Shown: piece by piece, positions 201-33,640 of the stretch | Layout: the number at the start of each line of letters is the position of its first letter | Position numbering within the stretch: position 1 is the first letter of the stretch | From: a virus | UHGV virus genome: UHGV-0824332 | Reading direction: 5' to 3' (one strand) | Length of the DNA: 38,403 nucleotides | Notes under the pieces: model-generated | What the model saw: only the letters and a program-made list of their open reading frames with translations | The model's database searches: none | What the model was told of the DNA's origin: nothing | Translations under genes and position numbers: made by a program

Positions 201-215
201 ATACCTTTAAGGTAA
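201..215. promoter_or_regulatory. Operator-like palindrome ATACC-N5-GGTAA (site A) between integrase start and lysis-operon terminator
   Basis: Imperfect member of the TTACC-N5-GGTAA family seen throughout the window. Confidence 0.4.
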
Positions 216-270
216 TACCGTCACCTGTACCGCCGAAAAATATGGTGTAGAGTGAATAGAAATGAATACA

Positions 271-302
271 TAAAAACAAAAACCCTCTGCAAAAACAGAG
301 GG
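271..302 (-). terminator. Rho-independent terminator downstream of Rz (end of late/lysis operon)
   Basis: Stem CCCTCTG/CAGAGGG (283-302) followed on the minus strand by TTTTTGTTTTT. Confidence 0.55.
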
Positions 303-475
303 TTGAGTTGGCATCTGAATAGGAATGACTTGCTATGAGTTAGCTGTTAATCATTCCCACTCAATTATTTACGACATGCATAACAAATTGACTGATAACA
401 ACTTTCTGCAACCTGATTTTCACCGTACCGTTTTATATACCGTCACCGGAAATCAGTACCATGAAAAATGCCATG

Positions 476-958
476 CTATCTGGTCAGGGTGTCGTACTGT
501 TTTTCACAGACTCTTCCGGCTTCGGCTGCCCGGTCAGCATACTCTGCCAGTTGTCTGTTTCTCTCGAGAGATTTGCTGAGCACGTTGGCAAGCAAAACTC
601 CGGTGTCTGCGGCTGACGTCCCAGCGCCGATAATGGCGTTATACTGCCTGAGCTGCTCACGGATGGCAACGAGCTGTTGCTGCAACCGGCCAGCGCGAGC
701 GGCAGCATCAAGAGCATCATTGCGCGCCTGGTCGATCCTCTGCTGCGCTTTGCGTTCATTGATCGCTTTCTCCTGTTCGTAGTGCTGACGAACTTTCTCA
801 TCTTCGGCTTTGCGCTCTTCCTTCGCCTGCGCATACCCGGCGTCGTACTGACGGCTGCCGTGTACATTCCAGGAAACAATTCCCGATATGACCAGAACAG
901 CAAGCATCACCACGATAAGCAACTGTTTCCAGTATTCTTTTAAGAATGCCCAGCTCAT
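476..958 (-). CDS. Rz-like i-spanin
   Basis: 160 aa, N-terminal TM helix then charged coiled-coil; last lysis gene, start overlaps endolysin stop. Confidence 0.8.
484..720 (-). CDS. Rz1-like o-spanin lipoprotein embedded in Rz in another frame
   Basis: Internal ATG gives [17 protein letters not shown] (lipobox LAGC) followed by Pro-rich periplasmic part; fully nested in Rz. Confidence 0.7.
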   Translation of the reverse strand: MMLLMLPLALAGCSNSSLPSVSSSGSITPLSALGRQPQTPEFCLPTCSANLSRETDNWQSMLTGQPKPEESVKNSTTP

Positions 959-1584
959 ACCGCCAGCGCCTTACTGGCAGTGATGTAACGCGCGCGCCGG
1001 TCGTCGATGCCGTTCCTGCCACCATTGATAATCAGAGTTACACGTACAATATCTCCGGTATACTTCATGCAGCCTTTGCTGGAGAAGAACCAGGCCGCGC
1101 TACGAGCCGCGTATTCGTCCTGTGCCAGCAGTTCAGGATTCTCCAGCAGGTCAACTTTCAGACCGTTTCCGCAGTCACGATAGTTATTCAAACCGGTAAT
1201 CTGGATAAGCCCGCGCCCACGGTAATTCCAGCCATCGCCGGGAGCATTGTTACCCATGCGTTTGCTGTATACCAGATTTGCGATCGCGCGCTGGCGCTCA
1301 AGTGGCAATGGTGGTTCACCAGCGCGGCGCCCCAGTGCATTAGCCTGTCCCTGGGTGAGGCGTCCAGTCCGGACAAAGCTCGCCAGTCCGGTAACGCTGT
1401 AGTTGAAATTCTCCTGCAACCTGGTGAACCCCCCAGACTCATGCCCAACTTGAGCAATAAACATTGCCTGATCTTCTGCCTTGCTGATACCAAACTCTTT
1501 CATCGCAGAAGTTATATGCGAGAACCAGCGAGCGGCCAGCGCCTCGCTAATACCAGCAGCTCGCTGGAATTGTTTAATCTCCAT
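955..1584 (-). CDS. Endolysin, glycoside hydrolase family 19 (chitinase-like)
   Basis: 209 aa with GH19-like motifs ([21 protein letters not shown]); sits between holins and Rz. Confidence 0.85.
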
Positions 1585-1882
1585 GTTTAGACCTCGTTAT
1601 TTTGAAAATCTGAACGACGTTACCGCGCGTTTTAATAACCGCAGCAAGCATGACAGCGTTGATAATGACCTCAGATAAATCCACAGCCATTGGCGTGCGT
1701 AACCAGATTGCATAGACGACACGAACTGGAATACTGGCTGCAGCAACAATCAGGAAATAAGCAAGCCACCCCCCCCATCTTCGGTGTTGTGAACCGTTAC
1801 GCCGGAAAGTGACAACGCGAATTGCTATGCCAGTACAAATAACTGCATTGGTGATAAGCAAAAAAAACTCATGCGTTACCAT
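1574..1882 (-). CDS. Holin/antiholin-like small membrane protein
   Basis: 102 aa, about 3 predicted TM segments, immediately upstream of endolysin. Confidence 0.5.
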
Positions 1883-2285
1883 CGTCTTTTCTCCCCGGAA
1901 TTAACTCGCGTGGGTTATCGGAACGGTGATAGAGCCAGATGCCAATTCGTACTGCGACGATTGCTGACACGAATGCGCCAGCAGAGAAAACAATCCCTTT
2001 CTCGAAAGAATCCTGCGTGATGGTAGGTATCAGGCTGGCTATGCCGATAAGAATTGATGCTGCTGGTTTGTAGAAAAGAAGCCCGCAGAGAAAGCTAAGC
2101 ATCGATAAGAGTACCCGACGATGAATTGGGTACTCTACCGCAGAGGTAACAAAAATTACCGCGCCAGCCAAAGCACCCAAAGCAACCTCAGGAGGCACTC
2201 CTGCTATCACCGCCGCCAGAGAACTCATGCTAAGCCACTGATTTAAAGTTTCACTGGTTAGTTGAGCTGACATATTTTCCACCAT
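1869..2285 (-). CDS. Holin-like membrane protein
   Basis: 138 aa, about 4 hydrophobic segments and charged C-terminus, first gene of lysis cassette. Confidence 0.55.
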   Translation of the reverse strand: MVENMSAQLTSETLNQWLSMSSLAAVIAGVPPEVALGALAGAVIFVTSAVEYPIHRRVLLSMLSFLCGLLFYKPAASILIGIASLIPTITQDSFEKGIVFSAGAFVSAIVAVRIGIWLYHRSDNPRELIPGRKDDGNA

Positions 2286-2494
2286 TTATATGCATAACGA
2301 CCCCCTAAATAGTAAAGCATTATGCATGATAAACCATTTGTGGTTTTTTGTTACCCTAACATTGTCAATCCCCTGCCTTTGATGTCGATAATAAGGCTCG
2401 CCTTTTACATAACTCTGAAGAGATTGCAGTACAGAAATGATTTAAAATATAGAGGCTTAGTTGAATTCCGCGCCATCAAATGGCGCGGTAGCAG

Positions 2495-2779
2495 TCAAAT
2501 AGAGAAATAAACACAAAAACAAATAGTAACAGGAACAACAAAGTCAAACAGGCTTCCAACATCCCATACGCGCGGATCAAAACCGCCCCACCACGGCATA
2601 TTCATACGCTTGCCATGCCCGAACATTTCAATCCAGCGATATTCTGCCTGGGTGTGTTCACGCGCAATGAAGAACGTACAACCAGCTATCGCTCCGTAAG
2701 CCCAGTTTCCGGTAAAAAGGCCAATCAGTACCTGCGCAGCCACAGCACAAAACGCATGAAGGAAAGGTGTTATATCCAT
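2495..2779 (-). CDS. Hypothetical small membrane protein directly downstream of tailspike
   Basis: Internal ATG (M24 of the track ORF) preceded by AAGGAG; 94 aa with 2-3 hydrophobic segments; motif MFGHGKRMNMPWWGGFDPRVWD. Confidence 0.5.
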   Translation of the reverse strand: MDITPFLHAFCAVAAQVLIGLFTGNWAYGAIAGCTFFIAREHTQAEYRWIEMFGHGKRMNMPWWGGFDPRVWDVGSLFDFVVPVTICFCVYFSI

Positions 2780-2813
2780 TATCGCTCCTTTAACATAAGG
2801 ATAAATAAACACT

Positions 2814-32495: not shown

Positions 32496-32515
32496 AGACC
32501 GCCGGGTGGCGGTCT
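32496..32515 (-). terminator. tR1-like hairpin downstream of Cro-like gene
   Basis: Perfect stem AGACCGCC/GGCGGTCT with GGGT loop, followed on the minus strand by TTTCATAT. Confidence 0.45.
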
Positions 32516-32536
32516 ACAGAGGGTTGTGGCTGGATA

Positions 32537-32767
32537 TCATGAGTAGAAGAAGTATGCCAGTTCTGCTTTTGAGCGCAGCCATTGTCTTGTTTTACAGGCT
32601 TTAAAAAGCCCATTCATCAATACCTTACCTGGCATTTTGCGCTTACCTGTTAAGTGAGTCTGGATATAGTGACTCGTCGTTCCGGCTTCCTGTGCGAAGG
32701 CTTCACGCTCATCCGGAGTAAGTGCAAGCCAGTGCTTTTTGAAATCGAAATGTCCGTTATCGCTCAT
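32537..32767 (-). CDS. Cro-like HTH regulator
   Basis: 76 aa, divergent from the repressor gene across the operator cluster, same orientation as O/P. Confidence 0.6.
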   Translation of the reverse strand: MSDNGHFDFKKHWLALTPDEREAFAQEAGTTSHYIQTHLTGKRKMPGKVLMNGLFKACKTRQWLRSKAELAYFFYS

Positions 32768-32803
32768 AGCTATTGCCTGATATTTATTTCAGATAATAAA
32801 TAT

Positions 32804-32866
32804 TCACCCATAAGGTAACAAAAATCAAGAATAGTTACCTATGAGGTGCATTTACCTGTTGGGTAA
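32804..32866. promoter_or_regulatory. Immunity operator region (OR-like) with three sites G, H, I and divergent promoters
   Basis: TCACC-CATAA-GGTAA (32804-32818), TTACC-TATGA-GGTGC (32835-32849), TTACC-TGTTG-GGTAA (32852-32866) between Cro-like and repressor starts. Confidence 0.6.
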
Positions 32867-32921
32867 TATTGCTTTAAATTGAATCATCTACTGATTCATA
32901 TATGAGGCGATTTTCCAGAAA

Positions 32922-33506
32922 ATGAAAAGTATCCAGGACGTCCGCAGGCAAAATCTCAACGACTTGATCGACCGTGAATTCAATGGTGTTCAGACGCGGA
33001 TGGCAGAAAAACTTGGAACTCAGGCAAATCTGGTAAACCGCTGGGCTCTTGGCAAGAAGGTTATCGGCGACCAGGTTGCGCGAAAAATTGAAGCTGCCGC
33101 CAATAAACCCCGTAACTGGCTTGATATTGATCGTTCGCTTTCTCAGGAGGGTTTTCAGCCTGTCGGCCCGAGCGATATAGGTCAGCTGGCGGCTCACAAC
33201 CTGGAACGCTGGATGAGCGAAAGCCGCGACCTTTCAACACAGGGAAAACTTCACCGCGCATCCGGCGTCGCCCAGGTGACAATCAGCCGTCTGTTAAACA
33301 ATGAGGTCAGCGTTTCCATTTCCACCCTGGAGAATGTTGCATCCGCATTCGGGCGTCACGGATATGAATTACTGATTCACCCGCACGACCCCGCGACTAT
33401 CAACTATGACCGCTCGCGCTACGCATTGTTACCTGAAACAGAGAAGGCAAAGATCGAAAGTTACATTGAATTTGTCATCAACCAGAACGAAAAAAGCAAA
33501 CAATAA
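32922..33506 (+). CDS. CI-like repressor with two HTH (XRE-type) domains and no S24 peptidase domain
   Basis: 194 aa; HTH-like segments around residues 20-60 and 110-150; C-terminus lacks the Ser/Lys peptidase motif region. Confidence 0.7.
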   Translation: MKSIQDVRRQNLNDLIDREFNGVQTRMAEKLGTQANLVNRWALGKKVIGDQVARKIEAAANKPRNWLDIDRSLSQEGFQPVGPSDIGQLAAHNLERWMSESRDLSTQGKLHRASGVAQVTISRLLNNEVSVSISTLENVASAFGRHGYELLIHPHDPATINYDRSRYALLPETEKAKIESYIEFVINQNEKSKQ

Positions 33507-33526
33507 AACTATAGTTTTCAGCAAGT

Positions 33527-33552
33527 AAGCCGCCTTCTGGCGGCTTTTTTAT
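33527..33552 (+). terminator. Rho-independent terminator after repressor gene
   Basis: AAGCCGCC-TTCT-GGCGGCTT followed by TTTTTT. Confidence 0.7.
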
Positions 33553-33563
33553 TGCCAGACAGA

Positions 33564-33640
33564 TTACCTTATGGGTAATTTTTTTAACTCATATCTATTG
33601 ACATCAAACCAGATACGCATAATTATTACCTCAACGGTAA
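33564..33640 (+). promoter_or_regulatory. PL-like early-left promoter with operators J and K
   Basis: TTACC-TTATG-GGTAA (33564-33578), -35 TTGACA (33598-33603), TTACC-TCAAC-GGTAA (33626-33640) over the -10/+1 region. Confidence 0.55.

What the first reader, a model, noticed from the sequence alone, without database searches (positions are those of the whole stretch)
201..33640. Genome-wide regulon of a 15-bp palindrome TTACC-N5-GGTAA (at least 14 sites)
Perfect copies occur at about 5234, 5615, 6662, 26955, 30459, 30521, 32852, 33564 and 33626; one-mismatch variants at 201, 23810, 32467, 32804 and 32835. A 10-position match is expected about 0.04 times by chance in 38 kb. Three sites sit between the divergent Cro-like and repressor genes and two flank a TTGACA -35 after the repressor terminator, as expected for OR and PL operators. 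The rest precede moron or accessory genes (ant genes, membrane cassette, terminase start, DUF1064, integrase start, tRNA moron), so one repressor appears to silence many accessory promoters directly. The tandem-HTH repressor is the likely binder.
Basis: seen in the sequence. Interest (0 to 1): 0.7.

Follow-up and report, generated by a model that had tools for sequence, protein, structure and literature searches.

The report
Repressor operators of a phiV10-like prophage
The repeated 15-bp palindrome is real and is the operator of the lysogeny repressor of a very common E. coli phage (phiV10/epsilon15 group), but the same sites are already marked as repressor-binding sites in the epsilon15 reference genome, so this is a correct rediscovery and not a new system.

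Summary
TTACC-N5-GGTAA occurs 9 times perfectly (0.03 expected) and 6 times with one mismatch (0.5 expected). All perfect copies lie in the 8% of the window that is non-coding.

The window is a Uetakevirus, a phiV10/epsilon15-like podophage. Its immunity region is found in 541 of 5426 complete E. coli genomes. The same motif sits at the same positions in phiV10, epsilon15, SPC32H, Tyrion, a Klebsiella phage and two prophages. The epsilon15 RefSeq record already annotates seven such sites, genome-wide, as "protein_bind: repressor".

The 194-aa protein is a full-length homologue of SPC32H Rep (PDB 5D50). A homologue of its antirepressor Ant, with a LexA box, lies next to site 5234.

- Site 32835 has two mismatches, not one.
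- Site 2135 is probably chance.
- Site 201 overlaps integrase arm-type sites and is doubtful.
- Most sites head core lytic transcription units, not morons.

Added details:
- Conserved operator pairs 62 bp apart bracket PL and a second early promoter.
- One operator controls an isrK/C4-RNA/Bro-Ant module resembling P1 immI.

Binding itself is inferred, not tested here. Novelty: already known. Interest: low.

The parts
32922..33506 (+). Rep, the lysogeny repressor (194 aa). It has an N-terminal HTH DNA-binding domain, a middle HTH-like dimerisation domain and a C-terminal tetramerisation/Ant-binding domain. It has no S24 peptidase domain.
   Evidence: PDB 5D50_A (SPC32H Rep), E 3.5e-42 over residues 1-190. 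99.5% identical to the phiV10p40 and ZX5 repressors. Alignments A1 and A7.
32537..32767 (-). Cro-like small regulator (76 aa), divergent from rep.
   Evidence: phrog_35 'transcriptional repressor', E 5.6e-13. 58-84% identical across the genus, with AGTTSHYIQxHLT invariant.
32804..32818 (.). OR-left operator (one mismatch, TCACC...GGTAA). It lies in the spacer of PR, whose -35 is TTGATT at 32828-32823 on the minus strand.
   Evidence: The position is conserved in 8 genomes (A8).
32835..32849 (.). OR-middle operator (two mismatches, TTACC...GGTGC).
   Evidence: The position is conserved with ACC-N5-GGT kept in 8 genomes.
32852..32866 (.). OR-right operator (perfect), nearest to rep.
   Evidence: It is perfect in all 8 genomes.
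33564..33578 (.). PL distal operator, 19 nt upstream of the -35 and just after the rep terminator (33527-33546).
33598..33626 (+). PL promoter, TTGACA-17-AATTAT. The last T of the -10 is the first base of the proximal operator.
   Evidence: 10 of 12 matches. CTATTGAC is conserved in 6 genomes.
33626..33640 (.). PL proximal operator, covering the -10 end and +1, 62 bp from the distal operator.
30521..30535 (.). Distal operator of the second early promoter (in front of the DUF1064/nin-like operon), just after the terminator of the replication gene.
30473..30501 (-). Promoter TTGATT-17-TTTAAT on the minus strand, with the same layout as PL.
   Evidence: Alignment A3 shows CTATTGA conserved in 6 genomes. 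Coordinates.
30459..30473 (.). Proximal operator, 62 bp from the distal one. Its central bases (TGAGG) together with the following GG form GAGGGG, which doubles as the ribosome-binding site of the DUF1064 gene (ATG at 30455).
32467..32481 (.). One-mismatch site after the cro terminator (32496-32515) and before the p42/dnaT/P genes. No convincing promoter is present, so it may be a roadblock or a looping partner of OR (337 bp away).
   Evidence: Present in phiV10, Tyrion and BUCT711 but absent in epsilon15 and SPC32H.
26937..26969 (.). Two operators 18 bp apart (26955 perfect, 26937 one mismatch). They lie between a terminator (26989-27006) and the terS start; the proximal one overlaps the ribosome-binding site and the ATG (26937/26934).
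   Evidence: The epsilon15 site at 12-27 is annotated 'repressor'.
23810..23824 (.). One-mismatch operator in the divergent region between the gp3 head operon (minus strand) and tRNA-Arg (plus strand). A conserved TTGACA at 23788-23793 lies 17 nt upstream, on the plus strand.
   Evidence: The epsilon15 site at 2931-2947 is annotated 'repressor'. tRNA-Arg lies at 24147-24223.
5234..5248 (.). Operator between the tail-fibre/lysis operon (minus strand) and the small ant gene (plus strand).
   Evidence: The epsilon15 site at 19895-19911 is annotated 'repressor'.
5286..5304 (+). LexA box TACTGTATAAATATACAGT overlapping the ant promoter.
   Evidence: Conserved in 6 genomes.
5326..5583 (+). Small antirepressor Ant (85 aa).
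   Evidence: PDB 5D50_E (SPC32H Ant), E 4.1e-47.
5587..5629 (+). Promoter TTGCAA-17-TATATT, with operator 5615-5629 starting at the last base of the -10.
   Evidence: phiV10 has the same site at 20497.
5666..5848 (+). An isrK-like RNA (5666-5742) and a C4 antisense RNA (5761-5848) downstream of that promoter.
   Evidence: Rfam RF01394 at 74.7 bits and RF01695 at 78.6 bits, both above the gathering score.
5897..6589 (+). Second antirepressor: a Bro-N domain plus a C-terminal domain homologous to the small Ant.
   Evidence: Pfam Bro-N, E 1.8e-13. phrog_130 and phrog_450. 42% identity to the small Ant over 74 aa.
6634..6676 (+). Weak promoter TTGCAG-17-TACTAT with operator 6662-6676 at the -10 end. 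It heads a three-ORF cassette (6690..7484) that includes a membrane-associated moron protein.
201..215 (.). One-mismatch match upstream of int. It overlaps integrase arm-type repeats (GTGACGGTAT at 215-224, and at 185-194 with one mismatch) and a hairpin. It is a doubtful operator.
   Evidence: The equivalent epsilon15 sequence is annotated as an integrase site and an RNase III site, not as a repressor site.

Best explanation
The palindrome A-TTACC-N5-GGTAA-T is the operator of Rep, the lysogeny repressor of Uetakevirus (epsilon15/phiV10/SPC32H-type) phages. Rep is encoded here at 32922..33506.

Rep carries one N-terminal HTH DNA-binding domain, a dimerisation domain and a C-terminal tetramerisation domain. 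It is reported to bind palindromic sites as a tetramer, and a tetramer offers two DNA-binding units. That fits the operator layout seen here: a triple at OR, and pairs exactly 62 bp apart (about six helical turns) that bracket PL and a second early promoter.

In the prophage, Rep sits on the -10/+1 or the spacer of the promoters that head nearly every lytic transcription unit:
- PR-cro
- PL
- the DUF1064/nin-like operon
- terS
- the gp3-head/tRNA divergent region
- the tail-fibre-lysis/ant region
- an isrK-C4-Ant operon
- one moron cassette

Because Rep has no S24 self-cleavage domain, induction goes through antirepression. DNA damage removes LexA from the box at 5286-5304. The small Ant (5326..5583) is then made and strips Rep from DNA, and all units are released together. 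The released units include a second Bro-N-Ant antirepressor, which is also gated by a C4 antisense RNA.

Shown here: motif statistics, non-coding placement, promoter geometry, conservation across 8 lineages, homology of Rep and Ant to the solved SPC32H complex, and the LexA box.
Taken from the literature or a database record: tetrameric binding to palindromic sites, the Ant mechanism, the repressor phenotype, and the epsilon15 site annotation.
Inferred: that Rep binds each listed site, and what each site does to its promoter.
For: - Enrichment: 9 perfect sites against 0.03 expected, and 15 sites with at most one mismatch against 0.52. 9 of 9 and 14 of 15 are non-coding.
- The window is a Uetakevirus.
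- The epsilon15 RefSeq record annotates 7 'protein_bind: repressor' features, all reading ATTACC-N5-GGTAAT. They lie before terS, before gp3, between gp19 and the tail fibre, three times at OL, and before RuvC.
- The same motif lies at orthologous positions in phiV10, epsilon15 and SPC32H, in Tyrion and Klebsiella BUCT711, and in a Serratia prophage and a metagenomic prophage.
- Phylogenetic footprints show that the operators and the adjacent -35/-10 elements are the conserved islands.
- Rep matches PDB 5D50_A at E 3.5e-42, and Ant matches 5D50_E at E 4.1e-47.
- The putative recognition helix NLVNRW is conserved.
- A LexA box precedes ant.
- PMC9638917 and PMC9986798 summarise Kim et al. 2016: Rep binds palindromic sites as a tetramer, Ant disassembles it, and the domain order is DBD, MDD, then the tetramerisation domain.
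- PMC9782041: overexpressing the ZX5 repressor abolishes free phage and cuts endolysin and holin transcripts by more than 99.9%. That protein is 99.5% identical to this one.
- The 62-bp paired pattern is found in more than 120 IMG/VR contigs, mostly about 40 kb, often as two pairs about 3.1 kb apart as in this window.
Against: - No binding assay was possible, and the primary SPC32H and epsilon15 papers could not be read here. That the SPC32H 'palindromic sites' are this motif therefore rests on the epsilon15 annotation and on position.
- The motif does not vary among Rep proteins of 42-100% identity. No repressor/operator covariation could be used, and the equally conserved Cro-like protein cannot be excluded as a binder.
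- Several sites lack a convincing sigma-70 promoter next to them (32467, 26937/26955, and 23810 on the gp3 side).
- Site 201 has a competing annotation.
- Site 5234 lies 14 nt upstream of the likely ant -35, so its effect on ant is unclear.
Confidence: 0.85

Rival explanations
1. The dispersed sites are used mainly by the Cro-like protein (32537..32767), or by Cro and Rep together. On this reading they serve to damp early, antirepressor and moron promoters during lytic growth, not to silence them in the lysogen.
For: The Cro-like protein belongs to a 'transcriptional repressor' phrog. It is even more conserved than Rep (58-84% identity) and has an invariant HTH-like segment, which would fit an invariant motif. 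In lambda-type switches, Cro and CI share operators (established knowledge).
Against: Rep is the protein shown to hold the lysogenic state (PMC9782041) and is reported to bind palindromic sites (PMC9638917). The epsilon15 record assigns the sites to the repressor. A distant cI with a related N-terminal domain but an S24 C-terminus (Pseudomonas phage PseuP_224) is flanked by TTACC-N4-GGTAA sites. That links the half-site to this repressor domain, although the phage also has a cro-like ORF.
Confidence: 0.3
2. Only the OR and PL sites are true operators. The other copies are roadblocks or looping anchors (stoperator-like) that stop read-through past terminators, not promoter operators.
For: Four sites follow intrinsic terminators within about 20-30 nt: 33564, 32467, 30521 and 26955. 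Sites 32467 and the terS pair lack good -35/-10 elements. A tetramer with two DNA-binding units could bridge distant sites.
Against: Sites 5615, 6662, 30459 and 33626 all start at the last base of a -10 hexamer placed 17 nt after a -35-like hexamer. That geometry is conserved among genomes, so it points to promoter occlusion. The sites are palindromic and show no orientation bias, unlike L5 stoperators.
Confidence: 0.15
3. The motif is chance, a mobile repeat, a restriction/modification target or a host-factor site unrelated to the phage repressor.
For: None found. Site 2135 (inside a coding region) and perhaps site 201 may individually be fortuitous.
Against: No shuffle out of 100 reaches the observed counts. 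The flanks are not repeated. The sites are exclusively non-coding, unlike a restriction-modification target. Their position is conserved at OR and OL in 8 phage lineages from 5 host genera.
Confidence: 0.02

Closest known systems
Repressor-binding sites annotated in Salmonella phage epsilon15 (NC_004775.2 / AY150271; Kropinski et al. 2007, Virology 369:234)
   Same: The genus and gene order are the same. The motif is the same, ATTACC-N5-GGTAAT. The positions match: before terS, before gp3, between ant/gp19 and the tail fibre, at OL, and before the RuvC/DUF1064 gene.
   Different: The epsilon15 Rep is only 43% identical. epsilon15 has a third OL operator and lacks the isrK-C4-Bro-Ant operon and the 6662 cassette. 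Its record does not annotate the OR sites or the second site of each 62-bp pair, although the motif is there. The annotation is a prediction.
SPC32H Rep-Ant lytic switch (Kim & Ryu 2013, J Virol; Kim et al. 2016, PNAS; PDB 5D50/5D4Z)
   Same: Rep and Ant are full-length homologues. Rep has no S24 domain. A LexA box overlaps the ant promoter. The motif is the same at the same places.
   Different: Rep here is 43% identical, whereas Ant aligns almost identically over 83 residues. This phage has a second antirepressor, Bro-N fused to an Ant domain, behind a Rep operator and a C4 RNA. The primary papers could not be read here.
Phage P1/P7 C1 regulon and the immI module (c4 antisense RNA, icd, ant)
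   Same: One repressor has operators scattered over the genome in front of many operons. One such operator heads an operon that contains a C4 antisense RNA followed by an antirepressor gene (Rfam RF01695).
   Different: P1 operators are asymmetric 17-mers and C1 is an unrelated protein (established knowledge, not tested here). This phage is a 39-kb integrating podovirus. An isrK-like RNA precedes C4 here.
Lambda OR/OL
   Same: cro and the repressor gene are divergent around a tripartite OR. PL lies downstream of the repressor gene with its own operators. The operators overlap the core promoters.
   Different: There is no RecA-mediated cleavage domain. The repressor is a tetramer with a separate tetramerisation domain. 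Extra operators lie at late, antirepressor and moron promoters. The operator pairs are 62 bp apart.
Mycobacteriophage L5 gp71 stoperators
   Same: There are many repressor sites throughout the genome in short intergenic gaps.
   Different: L5 sites are asymmetric 13-mers, depend on orientation and act on elongation. Here the sites are palindromic and mostly overlap -10/+1 elements.

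Membership tests
Uetakevirus Rep/Ant switch (SPC32H/epsilon15 type) | A repressor homologous to SPC32H Rep over its full length (DNA-binding domain, middle dimerisation domain, C-terminal tetramerisation/Ant-binding domain). | tested here: met
   phmmer against PDB 5D50_A: E 3.5e-42, residues 1-190 of 194. Alignments A1 and A7.
Uetakevirus Rep/Ant switch (SPC32H/epsilon15 type) | The repressor lacks an S24/LexA-like self-cleavage domain. | tested here: met
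   The 194-aa protein aligns end to end with Rep. The precomputed Pfam hits of its homologues are HTH families only.
Uetakevirus Rep/Ant switch (SPC32H/epsilon15 type) | A small Ant antirepressor homologue is present. | tested here: met
   5326..5583 against 5D50_E: E 4.1e-47.
Uetakevirus Rep/Ant switch (SPC32H/epsilon15 type) | A LexA box overlaps the ant promoter. | tested here: met
   CTGTATAAATATACAG at 5288-5303. Conserved in 6 genomes.
Uetakevirus Rep/Ant switch (SPC32H/epsilon15 type) | ATTACC-N5-GGTAAT operators at OR and OL and at the positions annotated in epsilon15. | tested here: met
Uetakevirus Rep/Ant switch (SPC32H/epsilon15 type) | Rep physically binds these sites as a tetramer and Ant releases it. 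| not testable with these tools
   Known only second-hand, from PMC9638917 and PMC9986798 summarising Kim et al. 2016.
Lambda-type CI/Cro switch | The repressor is inactivated by RecA-stimulated self-cleavage (S24 domain). | tested here: not met
   There is no S24 domain. An Ant plus LexA-box route is present instead.
L5-type stoperators | Asymmetric sites in one orientation relative to transcription, located within operons. | tested here: not met
   The sites are palindromic. Most overlap -10/+1 or spacer elements of promoters.
P1 immI-type antirepressor module | A C4 antisense RNA lies upstream of an ant gene in an operon headed by an operator of the primary repressor. | tested here: met
   RF01695 at 78.6 bits, 5761-5848. 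Bro-N Ant at 5897..6589. Operator 5615 lies at the promoter TTGCAA-17-TATATT.
P1 immI-type antirepressor module | The primary repressor is a C1 homologue, with asymmetric Op sites. | not tested
   Rep is an HTH_3-type protein homologous to 5D50_A. No comparison with P1 C1 was run.

The most novel reading that the evidence does not exclude
The operator is invariant across Rep proteins of only 42-100% identity, from phages of Escherichia, Salmonella, Klebsiella, Enterobacter and Serratia. Immunity specificity in this genus may therefore not reside in the repressor/operator pair at all. It could instead be set, as between P1 and P7, by the antirepressor layer. That layer comprises the LexA-gated small Ant and, in the phiV10 branch, a Rep- and C4-RNA-gated Bro-Ant that could act as an anti-immunity weapon against resident relatives. 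In addition, Rep tetramers may clamp promoters through the fixed 62-bp operator pairs.
Probability: 0.25. Interest if true: 0.5.

Novelty: already known. Interest (0 to 1): 0.2.

Why it matters
The finding shows that a reader working from sequence alone can recover a real phage regulon. It also lets the epsilon15 and SPC32H knowledge be transferred to the phiV10-type prophage, whose immunity region sits in about 10% of complete E. coli genomes. The phiV10 GenBank record (DQ126339.2) that I read carries no operator annotation.

Practical uses:
- a defined operator map for engineering phiV10-based reporter phages;
- predicting which moron and antirepressor genes are silent in lysogens;
- designing tests of cross-immunity among Uetakeviruses.

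It opens no new class of mechanism.

Tried and rejected
1. Literature. The epsilon15 genome paper (PMC2698709) and the two SPC32H papers (PMC3807360, PMC4983836) are not held. A text search for the motif string found nothing relevant. I relied on the epsilon15 record and on papers that summarise Kim 2016.

2. Covariation test of Rep against the motif.
- I looked for Rep relatives with a changed recognition helix and read two of their loci.
- The motif is unchanged even with NLISRW or NLVSRW helices, so covariation cannot discriminate Rep from Cro.
- The N-terminal-domain-only protein search returned only fragments.
- The search for related loci returned only 99-100% identical copies.

3. Mobile-repeat explanation. 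Rejected, because there is no extended repeat.

4. Restriction-modification target or chance. Rejected by the exclusively non-coding placement.

5. The promoter scan hit TTGATA-16-TAAAAT around 30521. Its -35 is not conserved in relatives. The conserved promoter is TTGATT-17-TTTAAT, between the two operators.

6. A first version of the late-motif pattern (N6 spacing) found nothing. The correct spacing is N5.

7. Site 2135 is dropped as probably chance. Site 201 is kept only as doubtful.

Full report
**Observation**

Dinucleotide-preserving shuffles expect 0.03. Allowing one mismatch gives 15 sites against 0.52 expected.

- 32835 has two mismatches.
- Across the 15 sites I retain, ACC-N5-GGT is invariant and the consensus extends to A-TTACC-N5-GGTAA-T.
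- With a gene map curated from annotated relatives, 8.3% of the window is non-coding. All nine perfect sites, and 14 of 15 sites with at most one mismatch, fall in that fraction (P about 2e-10 and 1e-14).
- Only 2135 is coding, and it is probably chance.
- The window has no direct-repeat family of 25 nt or more.

**What the window is**

The window is a Uetakevirus, a temperate podophage of the epsilon15/phiV10 group. It is 94-98% identical over long stretches to phiV10, PAS61, phiv142-3, ZX5 and EC.W1-9, and it runs in the opposite orientation to the phiV10 record. Its immunity region (32450-33660) is present at 95-99% identity in 541 of 5426 complete E. coli genomes. The repressor is 99-100% identical in at least 80 IMG/VR viral contigs. 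This is a very common prophage.

**Prior knowledge**

The epsilon15 RefSeq record carries seven features typed 'protein_bind, repressor, lysogeny'. Every one reads ATTACC-N5-GGTAAT. They lie:
- before terS;
- before gp3;
- between gp19 and the tail-fibre gene;
- three times downstream of the repressor gene;
- before the RuvC gene.

These are the positions orthologous to window sites 26955, 23810, 5234, 33564/33626 and 30521. A plain scan finds the same motif at the same places in:
- phiV10 (8 perfect, 6 with one mismatch);
- epsilon15 (11 and 4);
- SPC32H (10 and 8);
- Enterobacter phage Tyrion (9 and 6);
- Klebsiella phage BUCT711 (9 and 4);
- a Serratia prophage and a metagenomic prophage whose repressors are 53-58% identical.

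So the genome-wide set of repressor sites was already predicted for the type phage of the genus. The phiV10 record has no such annotation. The ZX5 paper defines no operator.

**The binder**

The 194-aa product of 32922..33506 aligns over residues 1-190 with SPC32H Rep (PDB 5D50_A, E 3.5e-42). According to papers that summarise Kim et al. 2016:
- Rep has an N-terminal DNA-binding domain, a middle dimerisation domain and a C-terminal tetramerisation domain that also binds the antirepressor.
- It binds palindromic sites as a tetramer.
- The tetrameric Ant takes it off the DNA (PMC9638917; PMC9986798).

The ZX5 repressor is 99.5% identical to this protein. When overexpressed it abolishes free phage and lowers endolysin and holin transcripts by more than 99.9% (PMC9782041).

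The small ORF 5326..5583 is a homologue of SPC32H Ant (5D50_E, E 4.1e-47). It is preceded by a LexA box, CTGTATAAATATACAG, at 5288-5303, which is conserved in six genomes. That completes the SPC32H-type switch.

**Anatomy and likely mechanism**

*OR.* OR has three operator positions conserved in eight genomes: 32804, 32835 and 32852, spaced 31 and 17 bp apart. The left one lies in the spacer of PR (-35 TTGATT at 32828-32823, minus strand).

*PL.* PL is TTGACA(33598)-17-AATTAT. The proximal operator begins at the last base of the -10. The distal operator lies 19 nt upstream of the -35, directly after the rep terminator.

*The second early promoter.* The region before the DUF1064 gene has the same layout: distal operator 30521, conserved CTATTGATT, 17 nt, TTTAAT, then proximal operator 30459. 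The GAGGGG inside that operator doubles as the ribosome-binding site.

*The 62-bp pairs.* In both pairs the centre-to-centre distance is 62 bp. The same 62 bp (63 in one case) recurs in every genome examined. The paired pattern also occurs in more than 120 IMG/VR contigs, mostly about 40 kb, often as two pairs about 3.1 kb apart as in this window. Sixty-two bp is about six helical turns. That is what one would expect if the two DNA-binding units of a single tetramer hold both operators on one face and clamp the promoter between them. This last step is inference.

*Other promoter-proximal operators.* The geometry in which the operator starts at the last base of the -10 is also found at 5615 (TTGCAA-17-TATATT) and at 6662 (TTGCAG-17-TACTAT).

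*Site 23810.* It is preceded at 17 nt by a TTGACA that is conserved in six genomes and points toward tRNA-Arg (24147-24223) and ORF 24422..24778. It also faces the gp3 head operon on the other strand.

*The terS pair.* The pair 26937/26955 follows a terminator and overlaps the terS ribosome-binding site and start codon. No good sigma-70 promoter is visible there.

*Site 32467.* It follows the cro terminator and lacks a convincing promoter. It may be a roadblock or a looping partner of OR.

**Doubtful site**

The one-mismatch match at 201 is conserved in all relatives with the same mismatch (GGTAT). It overlaps copies of GTGACGGTAT, which the epsilon15 record annotates as integrase binding sites. 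It also lies in a hairpin annotated there as an RNase III site. I keep it only as a possible operator.

**Rivals**

*The Cro-like protein.* The Cro-like protein (32537..32767; phrog_35) is more conserved than Rep and may share the operators, as Cro does in lambda. I tried to separate the two by covariation. The motif is unchanged in all eight Rep lineages, including ones with altered recognition-helix residues, so the test has no power.

*A distant repressor.* A distant cI with a related N-terminal domain but an S24 C-terminus (Pseudomonas phage PseuP_224) is flanked by four TTACC-N4-GGTAA sites. This ties the TTACC half-site to this DNA-binding domain family. That phage also appears to have a cro-like ORF, so the point is suggestive only.

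*Other explanations.* Chance, a mobile repeat and a restriction-target explanation are excluded.

**Comparison and novelty**

By every sequence-level criterion tested, the system is a member of the SPC32H/epsilon15 Rep-Ant switch. It resembles lambda in the layout of OR and PL, but it fails the RecA-cleavage criterion. It resembles the P1 C1 regulon in having dispersed operators.

The operator at 5615 heads an operon made of an isrK-like RNA (RF01394), a C4 antisense RNA (RF01695) and a Bro-N antirepressor. The C-terminus of that antirepressor is homologous to the small Ant. That arrangement matches P1 immI.

It is unlike L5 stoperators, because the sites are palindromic and promoter-proximal.

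I rate the finding as already known, since the same motif at the same places is annotated in the reference genome of the genus. Three details may add modest value:
- the fixed 62-bp operator pairs;
- the immI-like operon under a Rep operator;
- the invariance of the operator across strongly diverged repressors.

The invariance leaves open the possibility that immunity specificity in this genus lies in the antirepressor layer, not in the repressor/operator pair.

**Limits**

Nothing here shows binding. The primary papers on epsilon15 and SPC32H were not available. What they established about individual sites is therefore unknown to me.

Noticed in passing
window 1-127 and 38277-38403: The window ends form a perfect 127-nt terminal inverted repeat inside the integrase gene. 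About 390 bp of the middle of int (phiV10 27085-27477) is missing. This looks like an assembly artefact (a k-mer-length palindromic join), not biology.
   Followed up: partly
window 5666-5742, 5761-5848 and 5897..6589: There are Rfam hits above the gathering score for isrK (Hfq-binding sRNA) and C4 antisense RNA, directly upstream of a Bro-N antirepressor. The C-terminal 80 aa of that protein are homologous to the small SPC32H-type Ant. Together these form a P1 immI-like module in a podovirus, headed by Rep operator 5615.
   Followed up: partly
window 5182-5204 and 23746-23768 (also L002 2988-3010 and 19940-19962): A second conserved motif, TATTACC-N5-AACC-N2-ATATG, occurs twice (0.27 expected at up to 3 mismatches). 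It lies between a Rep operator and the start of the tail-fibre gene, and likewise before the gp3 head operon. It is invariant in six genomes. It is a candidate late-promoter or activator site, possibly for the phrog_536 'transcriptional regulator' at 27056..27397.
   Followed up: partly
window 5286-5304: A strong LexA box, TACTGTATAAATATACAGT, overlaps the promoter of the small ant gene, as described for SPC32H.
   Followed up: yes
window 185-194, 215-224 and 437-446: There are three copies of GTGACGGTAT, one of them with a mismatch. The epsilon15 record annotates this sequence as integrase arm-type sites around attP. Two of the copies flank the doubtful motif match at 201.
   Followed up: partly
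window 31767-31870: Iteron-like repeats (ATCCCGTTTTTGGGAT, period 24, 2.6 perfect copies plus about 3 degenerate 18-bp copies) lie inside the dnaT-like replication gene 31355..32170. This is probably the replication origin, as with ori inside lambda O.
   Followed up: no
L212 2922-2974 and 3797-3836 (Pseudomonas phage PseuP_224): A cI repressor with an S24 domain and an N-terminal domain 39% identical to the Rep N-terminal domain is flanked by four TTACC-N4-GGTAA sites (0.05 expected). The half-site is the same but the spacing is one base shorter.
   Followed up: partly
window operators versus L001-L005, L208 and L210: The operator half-sites are identical in eight Rep lineages of 42-100% protein identity from five host genera. 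The small Ant aligns almost identically to SPC32H Ant, although the two Reps are only 43% identical. This points to genus-wide operator compatibility and raises the question of where immunity specificity resides.
   Followed up: partly
window 30459-30473 and 26937-26951: Two promoter-proximal operators overlap translation signals. The central bases of 30459 form the Shine-Dalgarno sequence of the DUF1064 gene. Site 26937 overlaps the terS ribosome-binding site and ATG. Some relatives annotate terS from an upstream TTG, which puts the operators inside the CDS.
   Followed up: no
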